A DNA stretch of 64,000 nt from a virus (lineage: Duplodnaviria > Caudoviricetes): IMG/VR virus record IMGVR_UViG_3300047375_000738. One strand, given 5' to 3'. Positions within the stretch are counted from its first letter, which is position 1. The number at the start of each line of letters is the position of its first letter. The position numbers and the translations under genes are program-made. Below the pieces are notes generated by a model. The model was given only the letters and a program-made list of their open reading frames with translations. It did no database searches and was not told where the DNA came from. This document shows positions 42,671 to 48,703 of the stretch, piece by piece.

Positions 42671-44380
42671 CTACGCACGTACACGGTAAGAGTAAGTGAA
42701 TAGGTCTTCTGTTAATGGCGTTAGGTTTTTGCACTTGACAACAATGCTAGGCGATAACGAACCGTCGATGTCGTCTGTTGTTGCTGAAAACACAAAGTTC
42801 GCTAGATAAGTTGTGTCACCTGTAAAATCAGTTGTTTGATTCACTAGCAAGGTAGTGTTGTTGCTATCGTAATGAAATTCCATAGTTCCTGTCTGTCTTA
42901 AAAAAATGTTTGCATCTACGCCGTTTACTCGTTGTCCTTCGTAAAGATAGTCTAAGTAAACTACTCCTTCATTATACAACGGTAATTTAAGAATGTCAAC
43001 CGGATCTGTGCCACCATCTACCTGTGTATTTCCGATAGTGATTGAATGGCGTGTTTTGTTATCAAAATTTACTCTACCTGCAACATCAGCTATGTAGTTG
43101 GTTCCAATGTGCGGATCAATTATACTACTATCGCCTGCTGATCTATGTGGTGACAAACGTAGTGTTCTTTGGAAGTGATCGTTTTCAGTCTTGTTGTCCA
43201 TATCATTTGTAAAACTAATAACAGGTGTAACACATTGGCCTTCGTCGCCACCATCGTTGCCACAGTTTAAGAATGTATTGTTTTGACTGGTGTTGTAGTT
43301 TCCATTTTCAAATAGAAGTGTGTCTCTATAAACTAGATCAAATTTACTATCTTGAATAATATTATAACTAGGACCAGTCGCAAATCCATTTGCACTATTT
43401 AATGATCCTACGCCCATTACAAATGCTTGCCAACAAATACTTGCATTGATATTTGTCCATACATTTTTATCTGCATCGTGCGGTGCTTCAACAATGTGAT
43501 AGAAGTTATCGCAATCAATATTTGTAAACGTATTTTCAATGCACTGTGCATTACCAGTGCCGATCATATCAAACACTACGTGAAAACTTTCGTCAGCATC
43601 TCCAAAGTCGCCGCCAAATGTCCACACACCTTCAATTTTTAAATCACTAAAGTTACTACGTGCAACTTCACGCATTTGGAATACTGCACTAAATCTATTG
43701 TTGCGTAGTGTCATTCCGCTGATATTATTGTGTCTTACTTGTGTTGTATCAGAACTTGTTACTGGAACTGTTTGTGCTAACCCTGTATAAACACCAGGCT
43801 GGGCATTACCGTTTGCAAATGCAAACATTGGTTTTGTACTTGCGGTAGCTGTAGTATCTGATTCGGTGTAAAGTATAGTTTTACCAACTCCGTCACCAAC
43901 CAAACTTACAAGTGGCGGAATGTAAATTGTACTGCGTAGAATGTATTCGCCTGCTGGCACCTTAAGAGTTACTTTTTCTTTGCTTATTAGACTACGTAAA
44001 TAAAGTGCATCAATTGCTGCTTGGAACGCCGGCGCATCATCAGTACCAAGTCCATCTCCAACTGCACCAAAGTCAATTACTGTTGTTGTGGCATCAAGTT
44101 TAGCTTCAAGTGTTTGTGCTATCTTTGCAGTCGAACCCCAAAGGTTGCTAGTATTCTTATAGATATAAGAATTAGCTAGTGCAAAGATATCGCTGTGTTG
44201 TGTAAGAATTTCAGTATTACCAACTGCTGGGGCGCCTTCGCTAACTGCACCGTTACCGATATACATCTTTTGTGTATCAATTGCCCAACCAATTTCGCCG
44301 CCGGCTAACTGCGGAATACCAATTTCAGTTAGTTCTCTACCGCGTCTGTTCTGTATGCGAGAAATTTGAACAATGGCCAT
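42671..44380 (-). CDS. virion structural protein with beta-helix domain
   Basis: MAIVQISRIQ.RRG/PQLA.GEIGW N-terminus; DFGAVGDG..DD..AFQ.AID pectate-lyase-3-like. Confidence 0.75.
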   Translation of the reverse strand: MAIVQISRIQNRRGRELTEIGIPQLAGGEIGWAIDTQKMYIGNGAVSEGAPAVGNTEILTQHSDIFALANSYIYKNTSNLWGSTAKIAQTLEAKLDATTTVIDFGAVGDGLGTDDAPAFQAAIDALYLRSLISKEKVTLKVPAGEYILRSTIYIPPLVSLVGDGVGKTILYTESDTTATASTKPMFAFANGNAQPGVYTGLAQTVPVTSSDTTQVRHNNISGMTLRNNRFSAVFQMREVARSNFSDLKIEGVWTFGGDFGDADESFHVVFDMIGTGNAQCIENTFTNIDCDNFYHIVEAPHDADKNVWTNINASICWQAFVMGVGSLNSANGFATGPSYNIIQDSKFDLVYRDTLLFENGNYNTSQNNTFLNCGNDGGDEGQCVTPVISFTNDMDNKTENDHFQRTLRLSPHRSAGDSSIIDPHIGTNYIADVAGRVNFDNKTRHSITIGNTQVDGGTDPVDILKLPLYNEGVVYLDYLYEGQRVNGVDANIFLRQTGTMEFHYDSNNTTLLVNQTTDFTGDTTYLANFVFSATTDDIDGSLSPSIVVKCKNLTPLTEDLFTYSYRVRA

Positions 44381-44396
44381 GTTATACTCCTAGTGA

Positions 44397-45104
44397 TCAT
44401 TTTAAGTATTTATCCAATCGTCCTGATTGCACCCAATCGCCGTAACCGTTTTCTTGCGCAAGTTTTGTAGTGTGATACGGAGTTACTTCGGTTTGCTCCC
44501 AAGTGTGTGGACTCAATGGATAATCATCTATAATATTTTTTGCATCCATTGGTAGTAAATCGTTTAATCTAGGTTTAATTTGTAAATCAGGTGCTGGAAT
44601 AAAAACAAAAGGTATTCCGCTTCTAACCAAGGTAGCCCATGTACTGTGTATAATCCAAGCGTCTTGATCTGCTTTAGATCTCCATTCGTAGTTCTTAACA
44701 AAGAATGTTTTTATATTTTTAACAACCTTTGGAACATCGTGTTGTAGCAGACTAGTCAAACTGTTCGAAATAATACTTGGATATTCTTTAAAACGTGAAT
44801 CTAAACTACTAACATCTTCTAGTCCTTGATAATTAAAATCAAACAAGTTAGGAGGATGTCCTTGGGCTCTTTCAGCTTTGATTTCTATTCTATCAGCTTG
44901 AGTTGAACCCCAAAAGATAAAGTCAACTCCATCTTCAATAAGCTGATTGACTTGATATCTTATGAGTGTGTTACTACAATCGCCTCGAGCAAATGTTTTA
45001 TAGTTAGTAGCATAATGTATAGCGATATGCTGTGTAAAGTGTTGACCCGGATAGTCTTGTCTTGCAGACATAAAACTATCTCCTGCTACTCCAATTGTCT
45101 TCAT
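44397..45104 (-). CDS. SGNH-like hypothetical protein
   Basis: AGDSF, ARG.CSN, terminal H. Confidence 0.5.
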   Translation of the reverse strand: MKTIGVAGDSFMSARQDYPGQHFTQHIAIHYATNYKTFARGDCSNTLIRYQVNQLIEDGVDFIFWGSTQADRIEIKAERAQGHPPNLFDFNYQGLEDVSSLDSRFKEYPSIISNSLTSLLQHDVPKVVKNIKTFFVKNYEWRSKADQDAWIIHSTWATLVRSGIPFVFIPAPDLQIKPRLNDLLPMDAKNIIDDYPLSPHTWEQTEVTPYHTTKLAQENGYGDWVQSGRLDKYLK

Positions 45105-45784
45105 CCATGTTTCTCATAATACTGGCGGCAGCGATTCCACCACTCTTGTTCCCATTCTGCAAACTCATCTGGCCACAAGTCAAACTGCTGATACTCCAAG
45201 CCGCGACTGCACATAAAGATGTGTCCTTCACGTATGTCTGTACCATGCACTTCGTTATGTCCTAGTGCATATGCTGTAAGCTGTAGATAGTAGTCTTCTA
45301 CCCACTCAGGCTTCTTAGGCTTGTTGGTTTGCTTGAAATCCATAATACAAGGATTGCCTTTGTATTGTCCTACAAGATCAGTAGTACCAGCATAGATACC
45401 AGGAACATAAAGAGGAACTTCGCTGCCCCATATTTCATCTACATCAAGCATTGCTTCATCACGTATAACACATGCCATTTGATATGCTTGCTGTGCGTAT
45501 GGATTGCTGCCTGCGCTTTCTGTCCATACACCATTATCAACATAGTCTTCAAGATACTTGTGCATACGTGTACCAACACCACTTGCTTCAGTAACGATTT
45601 CCTGTGCTTTCTTTTCGCCTACACGTTTCTTCCAGGCAATAAGATGGCTCATGTCTTTGGTGCCGCTAAGGATTGTTGTTACACTTGCTACAGGAGGTCC
45701 GCCGGGTGCAGCATATCTGCGCTTGCCGCCAACTTCTACACGCTTTAGTTTTTCATACGTGTACTTAGGTTTTATTAATGTCAT
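45101..45784 (-). CDS. PD-(D/E)XK exonuclease
   Basis: SVTTILS, GT.MH..LE, SE..L, YAGT.D, DFKQT, QL.AY. Confidence 0.85.
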   Translation of the reverse strand: MTLIKPKYTYEKLKRVEVGGKRRYAAPGGPPVASVTTILSGTKDMSHLIAWKKRVGEKKAQEIVTEASGVGTRMHKYLEDYVDNGVWTESAGSNPYAQQAYQMACVIRDEAMLDVDEIWGSEVPLYVPGIYAGTTDLVGQYKGNPCIMDFKQTNKPKKPEWVEDYYLQLTAYALGHNEVHGTDIREGHIFMCSRGLEYQQFDLWPDEFAEWEQEWWNRCRQYYEKHG

Positions 45785-45790
45785 ACTTAG

Positions 45791-45819
45791 ATTATAATTG
45801 GATCTGGTCCAATTGTCAA
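45791..45819 (-). promoter_or_regulatory. sigma70 promoter with palindromic spacer, likely leaderless
   Basis: TTGACA-17-TATAAT-6-ATG; AATTGGA-N5-TCCAATT. Confidence 0.7.
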
Positions 45820-45820
45820 C

Positions 45821-46138
45821 CTATAATTTTTTACCAACATTAGTAGCTTTCTTAGCCATTTTGCCTACTTTATCTTTGTCACGCTTTTTATCTTTAGGAT
45901 CTAAGTCATCAACTTCGCTTGTTTTTAATTCAAGTGTGTCTTGGGTAAAGTCTTTGATAATTTCGTTAACTCTAGCATCTGTATCATATGCTGCTTTTAG
46001 CATATCGTAACTAAACTGTGGAGCACCCATGTTTAACATGTACTCGTTAATTTCGTCCATTGTAATAGAGGTTTGGCCCTTGTCTTTCAACAGGGCCAAT
46101 ACTTGATAGAGCTTGTCAGTTCTGATAGCTTCAGTTAC
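45821..46138 (-). CDS. ORF without a good start; probable -1 frameshift extension of 46135..46899
   Basis: only a TTG start (46099) without SD, inside a hairpin; frame stays open through the A9G run. Confidence 0.6.
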   Translation of the reverse strand, partial: VTEAIRTDKLYQVLALLKDKGQTSITMDEINEYMLNMGAPQFSYDMLKAAYDTDARVNEIIKDFTQDTLELKTSEVDDLDPKDKKRDKDKVGKMAKKATNVGKKL

Positions 46139-46899
46139 TTTTTTTTTGAAAGTGTTTTTGCTAGTTTGCGTGGATCAACGCTTTCACGTTGTTCTCTTTC
46201 ATCTGGCATATCTTCGCCGCCTGCTGCTGGATCGGATGCTGCCATATCGTCCATGTCATCCATGTCCATATCGCCTGTGTCGCCCATGTCGTCAGTTGGT
46301 TCCATATCCATGTCCATGTCGTCCATGTCTGGATCAGCACCCATCATGTCATCTCCGCCTTCGCCTGTGATTTGGCCTACGCCTGATGTTAGTGCAACAC
46401 GAGTTGATTCCATTGCACCGTATAAACTGTCTAGTGCTGGCTTGATAGTGTTTGTAAATGTTTCGCTTGCTTCAGCACCCATTTCATCACGGATAGCATC
46501 TGCTAGTTCTAGCATGGACTCTGTTTGCATTTCCGCTGTGTCTTCCATCCAACCAGTTAAACGGTCAACCATTTCTTTAGCTGCCATTACTAGCTCTGCT
46601 TGATCTTCTGCACCTTCGTTGACTTGTGAGTCTTCTGGGATTTCAATATCGCCACGCTCACTAATCTCTGCATTCAATACATCTAACATTAGCTTTGATT
46701 TTTGATATGTTTCGTTGTGTACGTTATCAAAACTTTCGTTTGTTTCTACATTGAATACTTGTGTACGTAATTTATTACGAGCGTTTTGTAGTTGCTCTAG
46801 AGTAAACTTCTCTAGGTTAAGTTTAGCGCCGAAGCGTTTTGCTAGACTTTCATTAAGTGTCTTAGCTGTTACTGGTTTTGCAAATTCTGAAATAATCAT
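46135..46899 (-). CDS. acidic head-associated (scaffold-like) protein
   Basis: LNE/VNE motifs, Asp/Met-rich C-terminus, structural neighbourhood. Confidence 0.6.
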   Translation of the reverse strand: MIISEFAKPVTAKTLNESLAKRFGAKLNLEKFTLEQLQNARNKLRTQVFNVETNESFDNVHNETYQKSKLMLDVLNAEISERGDIEIPEDSQVNEGAEDQAELVMAAKEMVDRLTGWMEDTAEMQTESMLELADAIRDEMGAEASETFTNTIKPALDSLYGAMESTRVALTSGVGQITGEGGDDMMGADPDMDDMDMDMEPTDDMGDTGDMDMDDMDDMAASDPAAGGEDMPDEREQRESVDPRKLAKTLSKKK

Positions 46900-46935
46900 G
46901 GGTCCATCCTGATGTTTTATTAAAAGTATTTATCA

Positions 46936-47367
46936 CTAGTGTTTTAAAATGTATGATTCTAGATCTGTATTAATGCTTTCTAACTCTGATTTTGCTACTT
47001 CTAGCCTAATTTCTAGCATTAATTTTTTATTTTCGTCATTGGTTCTATCGATAATGTATGAATAGTGCATTGCATCGTTTAAATGTTTTGATGCATTGTG
47101 ATCCTTTTGTTGTAGTTGATCAATTCTATGTCCACCAAGACTAGCTTTAGCAATTGCTACTGCACCATGCTTGGTATCTGCTGTCGATACTGTAGCATTA
47201 TCCTCAGTGTCTACAATTATGTACCCATGCCTTGTACTACGACGAACAAGCATTTTACCAATACGTATTGTCTTGCCTTCTTTGTAAGGCAAAGTATATT
47301 GCGGAATAATTTTATCGACTAAACTTTGTAATGTATCTGCTGTGCTACGAGTGCTCATGTCCAACAA
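46936..47367 (-). CDS. hypothetical protein
   Basis: operonic ORF. Confidence 0.7.
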   Translation of the reverse strand: MLDMSTRSTADTLQSLVDKIIPQYTLPYKEGKTIRIGKMLVRRSTRHGYIIVDTEDNATVSTADTKHGAVAIAKASLGGHRIDQLQQKDHNASKHLNDAMHYSYIIDRTNDENKKLMLEIRLEVAKSELESINTDLESYILKH

Positions 47368-47551
47368 CCAATAAGGCTCCCTTGTAATTGACTTTAGAAA
47401 CTAGGCTTTTGCGAACCAGGTTGTCTAAGACAATCTGTTCACGTTCAGTAAAAAACTCAATATAACACGGTTTTTCTAACTTGTCAAGTAAAGACTTTTC
47501 TTCGTTAGTTGTGTATATTTCAAATCCTTTTACTAGTTCATTCAATTTCAT
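47345..47551 (-). CDS. hypothetical protein
   Basis: MKLNE leader; operonic. Confidence 0.7.
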   Translation of the reverse strand: MKLNELVKGFEIYTTNEEKSLLDKLEKPCYIEFFTEREQIVLDNLVRKSLVSKVNYKGALLVVGHEHS

Positions 47552-48111
47552 TGTTCAGCGGCCCTCTGTAAATCTGCACTTTTGTAAGTCATTTTCTTTG
47601 GTTCGCCTGGCTTGGCTTGCGGATCTTCAATTTCAACTTCGTCGCCTTGTGTGCGTGTTACTTTGAAGTTCTTCTTGCCGCCTGGAGTATTGGTTGGTAG
47701 TTTTATTGCTTTGCCTACCTTTAAAGCTGGATCGCCACCCATTGTTTTGGCGCCTTGTGCGGCACTTGCTGCACCTGGGTTGGTTGGTGCTTTGCCTGAT
47801 GTTGGAGCAGGCTTTGCTGTTGCTGGTTGAGTACCAACTTTAGCATTTGGATCGTTTGTAGGTGCTTCGTCGTCATCACCGGCTACTGCATTATATGCCC
47901 CTTTTGCCACATTGCCGACACCTTTAGCAACACCCTTTGCTGCTTTGTATGCACCCTTGGCTGCAAGTTTTCCAACACCTAGTGCTGCCTTGCCTGCAAG
48001 TTTTCCAACGCCGCCAACTGCGGCTCGAGCTACACCACCTGCAATTGCAGGAATAAGAGGAAGTATTTCATCCAACTGCTCTTCTTCTTTTATGAACTCG
48101 TGTGCTCTCAT
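47548..48111 (-). CDS. Ala/Gly/Lys-rich putative internal virion protein
   Basis: QLDE leader, low-complexity AG/K repeats. Confidence 0.6.
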   Translation of the reverse strand: MRAHEFIKEEEQLDEILPLIPAIAGGVARAAVGGVGKLAGKAALGVGKLAAKGAYKAAKGVAKGVGNVAKGAYNAVAGDDDEAPTNDPNAKVGTQPATAKPAPTSGKAPTNPGAASAAQGAKTMGGDPALKVGKAIKLPTNTPGGKKNFKVTRTQGDEVEIEDPQAKPGEPKKMTYKSADLQRAAEQ

Positions 48112-48413
48112 CTTTTACTCTTACGCCTTCTTTTTGGTTTGATACTAGTTTTGTTTAGATTGTAAACACGTTTGGTTGTTGGTCTTCTTACAGTTCTACT
48201 TCTATTGATTGCTTGTACACTGCTTTTACTTCTGCGTGTTCTTTTTAGACTAGTACTTTTCTTTTGCGAGGTTGGTGTTGAGCATGTTGCAGGTTTAGCT
48301 ACCACGCGACCTTTTTTAGGTCCGCTGGTACAACGATACTTGCGCTTAACGCCGCCTTTGCTATCTCTTGCCCATACTTGGGTGTAGCTTTCTATGATTT
48401 CTGCATATCTCAT
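48108..48413 (-). CDS. basic putative internal virion protein (paralog of 48410)
   Basis: QVWAR..GGVKRKYRCTSGPKKGRVVAKP..C. Confidence 0.7.
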   Translation of the reverse strand: MRYAEIIESYTQVWARDSKGGVKRKYRCTSGPKKGRVVAKPATCSTPTSQKKSTSLKRTRRSKSSVQAINRSRTVRRPTTKRVYNLNKTSIKPKRRRKSKR

Positions 48414-48703
48414 CGTTTGTTCAAAGTCTTTAGACGCTTGCTTGCTGGATTAACTCTTTTTGTTTTCTTTGCTTTACGAGCCATCTTAGAGCCCAGTCTG
48501 CGTTTAGTTTGTTTAAATCTAACACTAGCTTTAATATTCAAAGGTGCATAGCACTGCGACATTTTTGCAACTACACGGCCCTTGCGTCTTCCGGCAGTAC
48601 AACGATACTTTCGTACAGTTTTCTTTCCAGAACGAGCCCAGACTTGTTTTTCGTCTAGTTCTTCTGATTCAGATGGTGTTAGGGTAAACTCTCTAATAAA
48701 CAT
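48410..48703 (-). CDS. basic putative internal virion protein (paralog of 48108)
   Basis: QVWARSG...RKYRCTAGRRKGRVVAK..QC. Confidence 0.7.
   Translation of the reverse strand: MFIREFTLTPSESEELDEKQVWARSGKKTVRKYRCTAGRRKGRVVAKMSQCYAPLNIKASVRFKQTKRRLGSKMARKAKKTKRVNPASKRLKTLNKR

What the first reader, a model, noticed from the sequence alone, without database searches (positions are those of the whole stretch)
45821..46899. Probable programmed -1 frameshift extending a head-associated protein
Seen: the 254-aa gene ends TCA AAA AAA AAG TAA (A_AAA_AAG at 46138-46144, A9 run). The -1 frame continues VTEAIRTDKLYQVL... for 105 aa to 45821. That ORF has only an SD-less TTG buried in a hairpin (UUGGCCCU..GAAA..AGGGCCAA, 46073-46099). 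Known: A_AAA_AAG is the classic bacterial -1 slip site (dnaX, IS elements), and A9 allows transcriptional slippage. Inference: two isoforms of about 254 and 359 aa. Caveats: the hairpin is 38 nt downstream, further than usual stimulators, and a homopolymer sequencing error is possible.
Basis: partly seen in the sequence, partly recalled or inferred. Interest (0 to 1): 0.75.

Follow-up and report, generated by a model that had tools for sequence, protein, structure and literature searches.

The report
Conserved A9 recoding site, phage head-type gene
A late gene of an abundant uncultured marine giant phage ends in a run of nine A's where a one-base slip, kept in every relative examined, adds a 105-residue domain that has no start codon of its own, so one gene makes two proteins; this is a new, well-supported example of a known kind of genetic recoding.

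Summary
The minus-strand gene 46135..46899 (254 aa) ends TCA AAA AAA AAG TAA, and the -1 frame runs on for 105 codons to 45821.

The recoding reading is strongly supported. All 81 related loci keep an A8-A11 run in the same codon phase, and 76 of them have exactly A9. In every split relative the -1 frame stays open for 99-126 codons. The first 22 codons after the run show a coding signature only in the -1 frame. In 56 of 58 distinct loci no start codon lies upstream of the run, and the only universal ATG (codon ~34) is inside the conserved domain. One relative is fused in frame. Of the 120 closest protein clusters, 114 end in SKKK.

The mechanism is not settled. I favour RNA-polymerase slippage for three reasons: the length is kept at A9, this is the only homopolymer of 8 or more in 64 kb, and one metatranscriptome contig carries A10 where DNA contigs carry A9. 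A ribosomal -1 slip on A_AAA_AAG may act as well or instead, because the downstream RNA is unusually structured.

The gene has a T4-type late promoter in 53 of 53 distinct upstream regions, a capsid-targeting-like leader and an all-helical acidic body. The junction always reads [V/I/L]-x-E, a possible prohead-protease site.

The scan found this same site earlier on another genome (e1-5320213). I found no paper describing it.

The parts
46927..46934 (-). GATAAATA, T4-type late-promoter-like box 33 nt before the ATG
   Evidence: TAAATA lies 25-48 nt upstream of the start in 53 of 53 distinct upstream regions of relatives; background is 0.053 per 70 nt. The identification as a T4 late-promoter type (TATAAATA) is from my own knowledge.
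46135..46899 (-). Zero-frame gene, 254 aa (P0002): MIISEF leader, invariant L15-N16-E17, long helices, acidic D/M-rich disordered tail, C-terminal SKKK
   Evidence: The family has 4572 cluster representatives, and 114 of the best 120 end in SKKK. phrog_14154 'virion structural protein', E 2.9e-17. The AlphaFold model is all-helical with residues 182-242 disordered.
46139..46147 (-). A9 run (T9 on the + strand): the slip site
   Evidence: It is the only homopolymer of 8 or more in the window. Run length is A9 in 76 of 81 loci, A8 in 3, A10 in 1 and A11 in the in-frame relative. RNA-run contig X16 has one extra base here.
46138..46144 (-). Heptamer A_AAA_AAG in the phase needed for a ribosomal -1 slip
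   Evidence: The phase is kept in all loci; two have A_AAA_AAA instead (L021, L066).
46135..46137 (-). Zero-frame stop TAA
   Evidence: In 18 relatives the stop lies 1-2 codons further on, yet the run is still kept.
45821..46138 (-). -1 frame extension, 105 codons plus TAG (P0001): junction V-T-E, winged-helix-like domain, conserved C-terminal V..MAK.AT helix
   Evidence: Coding signature only in this frame. 88 homologs, mostly free-standing 65-120 aa proteins, and one natural fusion, P0072. Model pLDDT is 85-90 for residues 10-70, and the top structural matches are all winged-helix domains at Z 4.7-6.3, below significance.
46130..46138 (-). Junction codons GTA ACT GAA (V-T-E), candidate prohead-protease site
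   Evidence: [VILM]-x-E lies within 3 residues of the slip in 57 of 58 distinct loci (the 58th has it after a second KKK); background is 4.2%. A gp21-type protease (PF03420, 90.8 bits) is present in a 330-kb relative. Cleavage itself is inferred, not shown.
46073..46099 (-). RNA hairpin on codons 14-22 of the extension, 38 nt after the slip; its 5' arm holds the TTG
   Evidence: Relatives keep a hairpin at the same codons with different, complementary sequences (GGCCC/GGGCC, AACCC/GGGTT, CTCTATT/GATAGAG versus CTTTGTT/GACAAAG).

Best explanation
This is one late phage gene that makes two proteins by programmed -1 recoding at a conserved A9-G run. Plain decoding stops at TAA and gives a 254-aa helical, acidic protein. 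A shift of one base at the run gives a 359-aa protein that carries an extra winged-helix-like domain with a conserved basic C-terminal helix.

I think the shift is made mainly by RNA polymerase. On a run as long as the RNA:DNA hybrid it stutters and adds one A, so that A10 transcripts read straight through. A ribosomal -1 slip on the same A_AAA_AAG heptamer probably adds to this.

Shown: the conservation of the run, and the coding status and start-less state of the extension.

Inferred: which machine slips, the ratio of the two products, and the biology. On the biology I propose that the short form is a capsid-targeted core or scaffold-type protein, and that a fixed minority carries the extra domain into the prohead, where the V-x-E junction may be cut by the gp21-type protease.

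The confidence given here (0.5) is for recoding with polymerase slippage as the main route. That recoding of some kind is real I put at about 0.9 (this explanation plus the first rival).
For: Recoding is real:
- The exact run and stop are kept in L001-L007, L009 and 78 of 78 complete IMG/VR genes at 54-98% identity.
- After the stop the -1 frame stays open 99-126 codons, while the +1 frame closes after 1-6 codons in most.
- The run phase is kept in 81 of 81 loci.
- In the first 22 extension codons the synonymous fraction is 0.26 in the -1 frame against 0.10 and 0.07 in the other frames, with 0 stops against 105-123.
- 56 of 58 loci have no start codon upstream of the run, and the only universal ATG, at codon ~34, is inside the domain.
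- A syntenic relative is fused in frame (P0072/L008).
- 114 of 120 family representatives end in SKKK although the C-terminal regions before it vary.
- Gene callers give the downstream ORF 69, 72, 79, 90 or 92 aa.

Favouring RNA polymerase:
- The run is A9 in 76 of 81 loci, although a ribosomal slip needs only A6G. This includes a synonymous A in the preceding TCA codon.
- Runs of 9 A/T slip at high efficiency in bacteria, and Thermus dnaX uses this (PMC5009743).
- This is the only run of 8 or more in 64 kb.
- The RNA-library contig in X16 (583 nt, 99.8% identical) has A10.
- The RNA contig in X15 ends at 46118, the point where I calculate an A9/A10 branch in a 31-mer assembly graph would close; the 31-mer word size is my assumption about the assembler, taken from the 31-letter sampling index. 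The RNA contig in X17 ends 3 nt away, at 46115.
- The one DNA run laid (X10) reads through with A9.

Biology:
- Late-promoter box in 53 of 53.
- PHROG virion-protein hit.
- Helical and acidic model.
- PF03420 protease in a relative.
- V-x-E at the junction in 57 of 58.
- In T4, fusions to the C-terminus of an internal protein are packaged and processed after Glu (PMC9026906).
Against: - The RNA evidence is thin. It rests on assembled contigs, not reads, with one A10 contig from one library that could contain DNA, a variant strain, or a reverse-transcriptase or PCR slip.
- The heptamer phase and the G after the run are also exactly what a ribosomal site needs.
- The 75 nt after the run are much more structured than control windows (mean z -2.5 against -0.1 to -0.9). 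In one clade a strong hairpin starts 2-11 nt after the run. That pattern points to a ribosomal stimulator, not to polymerase slippage.
- No protein data exist for either isoform.
- Head location and cleavage at V-x-E are inferred from motifs only.
Confidence: 0.5

Rival explanations
1. The recoding is real but purely ribosomal: a dnaX-type programmed -1 frameshift on A_AAA_AAG, helped by downstream RNA structure. The extra A's serve only E-site re-pairing or the Lys-Lys-Lys peptide.
For: The heptamer is in phase in all loci and G follows the run in 79 of 81. A_AAA_AAG is the most shift-prone heptamer in E. coli and is the dnaX site (PMC5009743). Structure is enriched just 3' of the site, with compensatory changes in the hairpin. 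In the RQQKAAG clade the stem starts 2-11 nt after the site.
Against: No Shine-Dalgarno-like stimulator was seen upstream by eye. In the window the strong hairpin lies 38 nt downstream, beyond a ribosome positioned at the site. Hairpin position and register differ between clades, and five clade members have none. A ribosomal slip does not explain why A9 rather than A6G is kept. L021 and L066 have the weaker A_AAA_AAA. An RNA contig carries A10.
Confidence: 0.36
2. These are two separate genes. The 105-codon frame is a free-standing small gene started at the TTG (46099) or an internal ATG, as in the many free-standing homologs of the domain.
For: Most homologs of the domain are small independent proteins of 65-120 aa with their own Met and their own leader. 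Gene callers annotate 69-92 aa ORFs here.
Against: The TTG is not conserved; it is TTA in L004-L007. In about a third of distinct loci no ATG/GTG/TTG occurs before codon 29-40. Yet the 22 codons directly after the run are conserved as protein, with a coding signature and no stops. No Shine-Dalgarno sequence was seen by eye before any candidate start in the window. The A-run and the SKKK end would be left unexplained.
Confidence: 0.05
3. It is a mutation, a sequencing error or a length-variable 'contingency' homopolymer that has broken a once-continuous gene, as in other A-run cases this scan has judged ordinary.
For: Homopolymers are error- and mutation-prone. Two of 120 family representatives end SKKSN or SKKS, as an A8 variant would. 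One relative (L008) is in frame with A11. Earlier notes of this scan found unprogrammed A-run breaks in other T4-like internal-protein genes.
Against: Run length is nearly invariant (A9 in 76 of 81) across relatives down to 54% identity, from dozens of independent metagenomes. The exact 254-aa product is called on 55 contigs, and three near-identical 254-aa members of its cluster on 77, 25 and 17. A hot spot would show many lengths and many in-frame copies, and a broken gene would decay downstream.
Confidence: 0.03

Closest known systems
Thermus thermophilus dnaX (tau/gamma) by transcriptional slippage on a run of nine (Larsen et al. 2000, as reviewed in PMC5009743)
   Same: A run of 9 A/T inside a coding region. 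RNA polymerase adds A's, and plain translation of the mixed mRNAs gives a short and a long protein with the same N-terminal part.
   Different: dnaX is a cellular replication gene, and in Thermus slippage shortens the product. Here the gene is a phage late gene and the slip lengthens the product. Slippage is not yet demonstrated here.
E. coli dnaX -1 ribosomal frameshift at A_AAA_AAG
   Same: Identical heptamer in the identical phase; two products from one gene.
   Different: dnaX has an upstream Shine-Dalgarno-like stimulator and a stem-loop about 6 nt downstream. Here no such upstream element was seen, and the structure is variably placed (38 nt away in the window). In dnaX the frameshift product is the shorter one.
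Phage lambda gpG/gpGT and the conserved tail-assembly-chaperone frameshift of tailed phages (Xu et al. 2004; PMC5009743)
   Same: A conserved phage late-gene -1 recoding that sets a fixed ratio between an abundant short protein and a rare C-terminally extended one used in virion assembly.
   Different: The gene family and position differ: this gene is not next to a tape-measure gene. The slip site differs (G_GGA_AAG in lambda), and the proposed role here is in the head, not the tail.
Citrobacter rodentium tssM transcriptional frameshifting on a poly-A tract (PMC4256274)
   Same: A poly-A tract at which transcriptional slippage produces two length variants of one protein.
   Different: There it rescues a gene interrupted in one species. 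Here the split state is the conserved norm of a family of thousands.
T4 internal proteins (IPI-III, Alt) with capsid targeting sequence, cut by gp21 after Glu (PMC9026906)
   Same: An M-x-x-x-E-hydrophobic type leader, (L/I)-x-E motifs, late expression, a gp21-type protease in the lineage, and the T4 precedent that cargo fused to an internal protein's C-terminus is packaged.
   Different: There is no sequence homology to T4 IPs. Virion location and cleavage are untested. T4 IPs are not known to use recoding.

Membership tests
Programmed -1 ribosomal frameshift site (dnaX/IS type) | Slippery heptamer X_XXY_YYZ in the zero-frame phase | tested here: met
   A_AAA_AAG at 46138-46144; phase kept in 81 of 81 loci, two of them with A_AAA_AAA.
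Programmed -1 ribosomal frameshift site (dnaX/IS type) | -1 frame downstream is open, coding, conserved and lacks its own start | tested here: met
Programmed -1 ribosomal frameshift site (dnaX/IS type) | Stimulators: internal Shine-Dalgarno about 10 nt upstream and/or stable structure 5-9 nt downstream | tested here: inconclusive
   No Shine-Dalgarno-like element was seen upstream, but this was by eye only, not a systematic scan. Downstream structure is enriched (z -2.5 against controls), but its spacing ranges from 2 to about 50 nt, it is 38 nt away in the window, and some clades lack it.
Programmed -1 ribosomal frameshift site (dnaX/IS type) | Transframe protein made from unedited mRNA | not testable with these tools
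   Needs a reporter assay or mass spectrometry.
Programmed transcriptional slippage (Thermus dnaX, Shigella mxiE, tssM type) | Homopolymer of about 9 or more A/T, with its length conserved | tested here: met
   A9 in 76 of 81 loci, range A8-A11; the only run of 8 or more in the window.
Programmed transcriptional slippage (Thermus dnaX, Shigella mxiE, tssM type) | RNA heterogeneous in run length over a homogeneous DNA template | tested here: inconclusive
   One RNA-library contig has A10. Two RNA contigs carry A9 and end at 46118 and 46115, at or near where I calculate an A9/A10 branch in a 31-mer graph would close. The DNA contig reads A9 and runs through. These are contigs only; no raw reads were available.
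T4-type capsid-targeted, protease-processed head proteins | N-terminal leader ending in (L/I)-x-E, and a gp21-type prohead protease in the phage | tested here: met
   MIISEF leader and invariant L15-N16-E17. PF03420 at 90.8 bits in a 330-kb, 93%-complete relative. The window's own genome is not held, so the protease was not checked in it.
T4-type capsid-targeted, protease-processed head proteins | Late expression | tested here: met
   GATAAATA-type box in 53 of 53 distinct upstream regions. This is a sequence motif only.
T4-type capsid-targeted, protease-processed head proteins | Presence in the prohead or virion and cleavage after Glu | not testable with these tools
   Needs virion proteomics.
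Hypermutable homopolymer / phage contingency locus | Run length varies among close relatives, giving both in-frame and out-of-frame copies | tested here: not met
   Length is nearly invariant. There is one in-frame copy among 81 loci, and no fused form among the 120 best family hits.
Winged-helix domains | H-S-H-H-S-S fold matching solved winged-helix domains | tested here: inconclusive
   The top Foldseek and VIA matches are nearly all winged-helix domains, but at E >= 0.14 and Z <= 6.3, below the tools' significance guides.

The most novel reading that the evidence does not exclude
The recoding may be a dosing device for capsid cargo. A fixed fraction of a capsid-targeted core protein would be extended by slippage with a winged-helix-like domain. 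The invariant [V/I/L]-x-E at the junction would be a prohead-protease site that frees this domain inside the head, for DNA binding or for injection with the genome. Where the same domain is free-standing, it carries its own M-x-x-x-E leader instead. If so, this phage lineage uses polymerase or ribosome slippage to set the copy number of an internal head protein.
Probability: 0.3. Interest if true: 0.75.

Novelty: new member of a known kind. Interest (0 to 1): 0.6.

Why it matters
Conserved recoding sites in tailed phages are known mainly from tail-assembly chaperones and a few capsid genes. This one sits in a different, unannotated gene family with thousands of members in ocean metagenomes. 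It has no relative among 50,697 GenBank phage records.

It matters in four ways:
- **Annotation.** Gene callers split the locus into a 254-aa gene and a 69-92 aa stub, so the site corrects a systematic error.
- **Mechanism.** It offers a natural test bed for separating polymerase slippage from ribosomal slippage on one motif, because the A9 run and A_AAA_AAG coincide and natural A8, A10 and A11 variants exist.
- **Biology.** It suggests how T4-like giant phages might meter a minor head component.
- **Practical marker.** The invariant short motif could serve to find this phage lineage.

Tried and rejected
- **GenBank phages:** blastn (distant mode) of the locus and tblastn of both proteins found nothing.
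- **Domain libraries:** Pfam gave no hit for either part. PHROGs gave none for the extension or for free-standing homologs of the domain.
- **Rfam:** no match at E <= 1 over 45600-47100.
- **Distant loci for the extension family:** The search for related loci with alignment A1 failed because no stretch was conserved enough.
- **Exact-protein look-up:** P0003 is not on record.
- **Fused forms:** a search for longer proteins with P0001 returned nothing at E <= 1e-5. This is weak evidence only.
- **Window's own genome:** none is held, so the protease and capsid genes could not be sought in it. A 330-kb relative was used instead.
- **Raw reads:** all 24 runs on offer are kept as assembled contigs, so A9:A10 ratios could not be counted. 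Parts of the stretch lacking RNA contig cover in X15-X17 are not evidence of anything.
- **Single consensus hairpin:** I considered scoring one by pair counts and dropped it, because the hairpins in different relatives use different registers. I relied on z-scores with control windows instead; the first run of that script timed out and was repeated.
- **Stop-codon readthrough or an alternative genetic code:** rejected, because the two parts are in different frames.
- **Terminator:** rejected for the 46073-46099 hairpin, because no U-tract follows it.

Full report
**1. The observation**

On the minus strand an ORF runs from the ATG at 46899 to the TAA at 46137-46135. It encodes 254 aa (P0002) and ends TCA AAA AAA AAG TAA. 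The A-run is nine long (46139-46147). The heptamer A_AAA_AAG (46138-46144) is in the phase needed for a -1 slip. From G46138 the -1 frame reads VTEAIRTDKLYQVL... for 105 codons (P0001) to the TAG at 45823-45821.

The first possible start in that frame is the TTG at 46099 (codon 14). It sits in the 5' arm of a hairpin at 46073-46099.

The T9/A9 run is the only A/T homopolymer of 8 or more in the whole 64-kb window. There are 21 runs of 7 and none of 8, where about 8.4 runs of 8 or more would be expected from base composition.

**2. Relatives**

GenBank phages hold nothing similar, but metagenomes hold a great deal.

- With P0001, seven IMG/VR loci (74-98% identity) all carry the identical TTTCAAAAAAAAAGTAA.
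- The 254-aa protein belongs to a family of 4572 cluster representatives. Of the best 120, 114 end in SKKK, although the region before it varies and carries different inserted modules.
- Eighty further IMG/VR loci (54-98% identity, contigs up to 330 kb) were fetched with a family alignment.
- In all 78 genes that are complete, an A-run followed by G lies at or 1-2 codons before the stop. The -1 frame then stays open for 99-126 codons. The +1 frame closes after 1-6 codons in most loci.
- Counting the window, a TARA locus (L009) and a fused relative, the run is A9 in 76 of 81 loci, A8 in 3, A10 in 1 and A11 in 1. It is always in a phase that keeps an A_AAA_AAR heptamer.
- The exact 254-aa product of the window is called on 55 contigs from JGI, Logan and ENA, and three near-identical 254-aa members of its cluster on 77, 25 and 17.

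A sequencing error or a variable hot spot cannot produce this picture.

**3. Is the extension translated from the junction?**

The extension proteins align from the first residue after the run. In the 22 codons between the run and the first conserved Met:
- 26% of codon differences are synonymous in the -1 frame, against 10% and 7% in the other two frames;
- there are no stops in 46 sequences, against 105 and 123 in the other frames;
- variability follows the order codon position 3 > 1 > 2.

In 56 of 58 distinct loci the -1 frame has no ATG, GTG or TTG between its upstream stop and the run. The window's TTG is TTA in L004-L007. The only universally kept ATG is at codon ~34, in the middle of the conserved domain. 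In roughly a third of loci nothing earlier exists. Gene callers accordingly give this ORF 69, 72, 79, 90 or 92 aa in different records.

A syntenic relative, L008 (a Logan contig of 17.7 kb), encodes both parts as one 376-aa protein (P0072). There the run is A11, and a slip in either direction would meet a stop within 2-5 codons. So the same two products would arise with the default reversed.

I conclude that the extension is made as a C-terminal addition to the 254-aa protein.

**4. Which machine slips?**

Both candidate mechanisms fit the motif.

*For RNA polymerase:*
- A ribosomal slip needs only A6G, yet A9 is kept. This includes the synonymous third base of the preceding TCA codon.
- Nine is the length at which bacterial polymerase slips efficiently. 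It matches the 9-10 bp hybrid, and Thermus dnaX uses it (PMC5009743).
- Two loci have A_AAA_AAA, a weak ribosomal site, but still have a run of 9-10.
- I laid contigs from three metatranscriptome runs and one DNA run. The DNA contig (X10, 3.9 kb) reads A9 without a break.
- The only contig of RNA run X16 across the site (583 nt, one substitution relative to the window) has one extra base in the run. That is A10, the in-frame form.
- The RNA contig of X15 carries A9 but ends at 46118. I calculate this to be where an A9/A10 branch in a 31-mer assembly graph would close; the 31-mer word size is my assumption about the assembler, based on the 31-letter sampling index. The RNA contig of X17 also carries A9 and ends 3 nt away, at 46115.
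- This is a hint, not proof. These are contigs, an RNA library can hold DNA, and reverse transcriptase can itself slip.

*For the ribosome:*
- The heptamer phase is invariant and G follows the run in 79 of 81 loci.
- The 75 nt after the run are far more structured than seven control windows in the same loci. The mean z is -2.5 with 48% below -2, against -0.1 to -0.9 with 3-19% below -2.
- In the window's clade a hairpin sits on codons 14-22 of the extension. It is kept by complementary changes in different relatives.
- In another clade a strong stem starts 2-11 nt after the run. Some clade members have none.
- The variable spacing, 38 nt in the window, does not fit a classical stimulator, and I saw no Shine-Dalgarno-like element upstream.

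Given that recoding is real, I put polymerase slippage as the main route at about 0.5 and a purely ribosomal route at about 0.36. Both are likely to contribute.

**5. What the proteins are**

- *Late promoter.* A GATAAATA-type box lies 25-48 nt before the start in 53 of 53 distinct upstream regions; background is 0.05 per 70 nt. By my own knowledge it resembles the T4 late promoter TATAAATA. In the window it is at 46927-46934.
- *Short protein.* It starts MIISEF and has an invariant L15-N16-E17. It is predicted as long helices followed by a disordered acidic tail. It hits phrog_14154 'virion structural protein'. Its only structural neighbours are uncharacterised phage proteins.
- *Protease in the lineage.* A 330-kb, 93%-complete relative encodes a T4 gp21-type prohead protease (PF03420, 90.8 bits).
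- *T4 precedent.* In T4, short N-terminal capsid-targeting sequences ending in (L/I)-x-E are cut after Glu. Cargo fused to the C-terminus of an internal protein is packaged and delivered (PMC9026906).
- *Extension.* Its model is confident for residues 10-70. It looks like a winged-helix domain, but the matches are weak (Z <= 6.3). A disordered linker and a conserved basic helix (V..MAK.AT) follow.
- *Homologs of the extension.* Most are free-standing 65-120 aa proteins, or N-terminal domains of larger ones, often with their own M-x-x-x-E leader.
- *Junction motif.* Directly after the slip, 57 of 58 distinct loci read [V/I/L/M]-x-E, against a background of 4.2%. A variant (P0221) has ...TVTEA... 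in frame, followed by an inserted Cys-rich module and a new SKKK end.

This suggests, but does not show, that the junction is a protease site and that the recoding loads a metered amount of the domain into the prohead.

**6. Rivals**

- *Separate gene started internally.* This fails on start-codon conservation and on the coding signature upstream of any start.
- *Mutation, sequencing error or contingency locus.* This is how the scan judged other A-run breaks in T4-like internal-protein genes. It fails here on the near-invariant run length across deep divergence.

**7. Novelty**

The kind of event is known: dnaX, lambda G/GT and tssM. The gene family, its lineage (uncultured marine T4-like giant phages) and the head-protein context are not in the literature I could search.

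The scan already recorded the same site on another genome, with the same conclusion (e1-5320213). My analysis was done before I read that note and agrees with it. It adds:
- the run-length argument;
- the RNA-contig hint;
- the structure enrichment measured against controls;
- the late promoter;
- the junction motif.

Noticed in passing
window 45791-45819 (- strand): A perfect 12/12 sigma-70 consensus promoter (TTGACA, 17 nt, TATAAT) starts two bases after the extension's stop codon and precedes the PD-(D/E)XK exonuclease gene (45101-45784). Its spacer holds an inverted repeat, ATTGGA..TCCAAT.
   Followed up: partly
window 47459-47487 (- strand): An 11/12 sigma-70-like promoter with an extended -10 TG lies inside the 68-aa gene 47345-47551, upstream of the 143-aa gene and of the recoded gene. 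The cluster may therefore be read early as well as late.
   Followed up: no
P0106, P0109, P0170, P0221 (family members): Some family members carry an inserted Cys-rich module (KCCKEG..CCKKYP.CD..SCMSEMK) between the acidic tail and a re-created SKKK end. Others carry a different Lys-rich insert ending EMYESKKK. The slip site is always rebuilt at the new C-terminus.
   Followed up: partly
L071 and L073, about 1228-1270: The slip motif is duplicated: TCA AAA AAA AAG ATC TAA CTG ATT CAA AAA AAA AG. After a -1 slip at the first run, the second run is read as TCA AAA AAA AAG again.
   Followed up: no
L008 3790-3802: An in-frame relative with A11 encodes a single 376-aa protein. A slip of one base in either direction meets a stop within 2-5 codons, so the default product is reversed there.
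   Followed up: partly
window 47548-48703 and 47345-47551 (- strand): The upstream neighbours also begin with M-x-x-x-E-hydrophobic leaders: MRAHEF, MRYAEI, MFIREF and MKLNEL. Two of them (48108-48413, 48410-48703) share a VWAR..K....KYRC..G..KGRVVAK motif and very basic tails.
   Followed up: no
window 42671-44380 (- strand): A 569-aa protein has an Mtd_N-like N-terminus and a pectate-lyase-type domain. The same gene follows the recoded gene in L008, so the synteny recoded gene - nuclease - about 230 aa - fibre is kept.
   Followed up: partly
window 46152-46477: One RNA contig in X17 joins 46152 to 46477, skipping 324 nt, which is the acidic D/M-rich region. It probably comes from a relative with a shorter acidic tail rather than from processing.
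   Followed up: no
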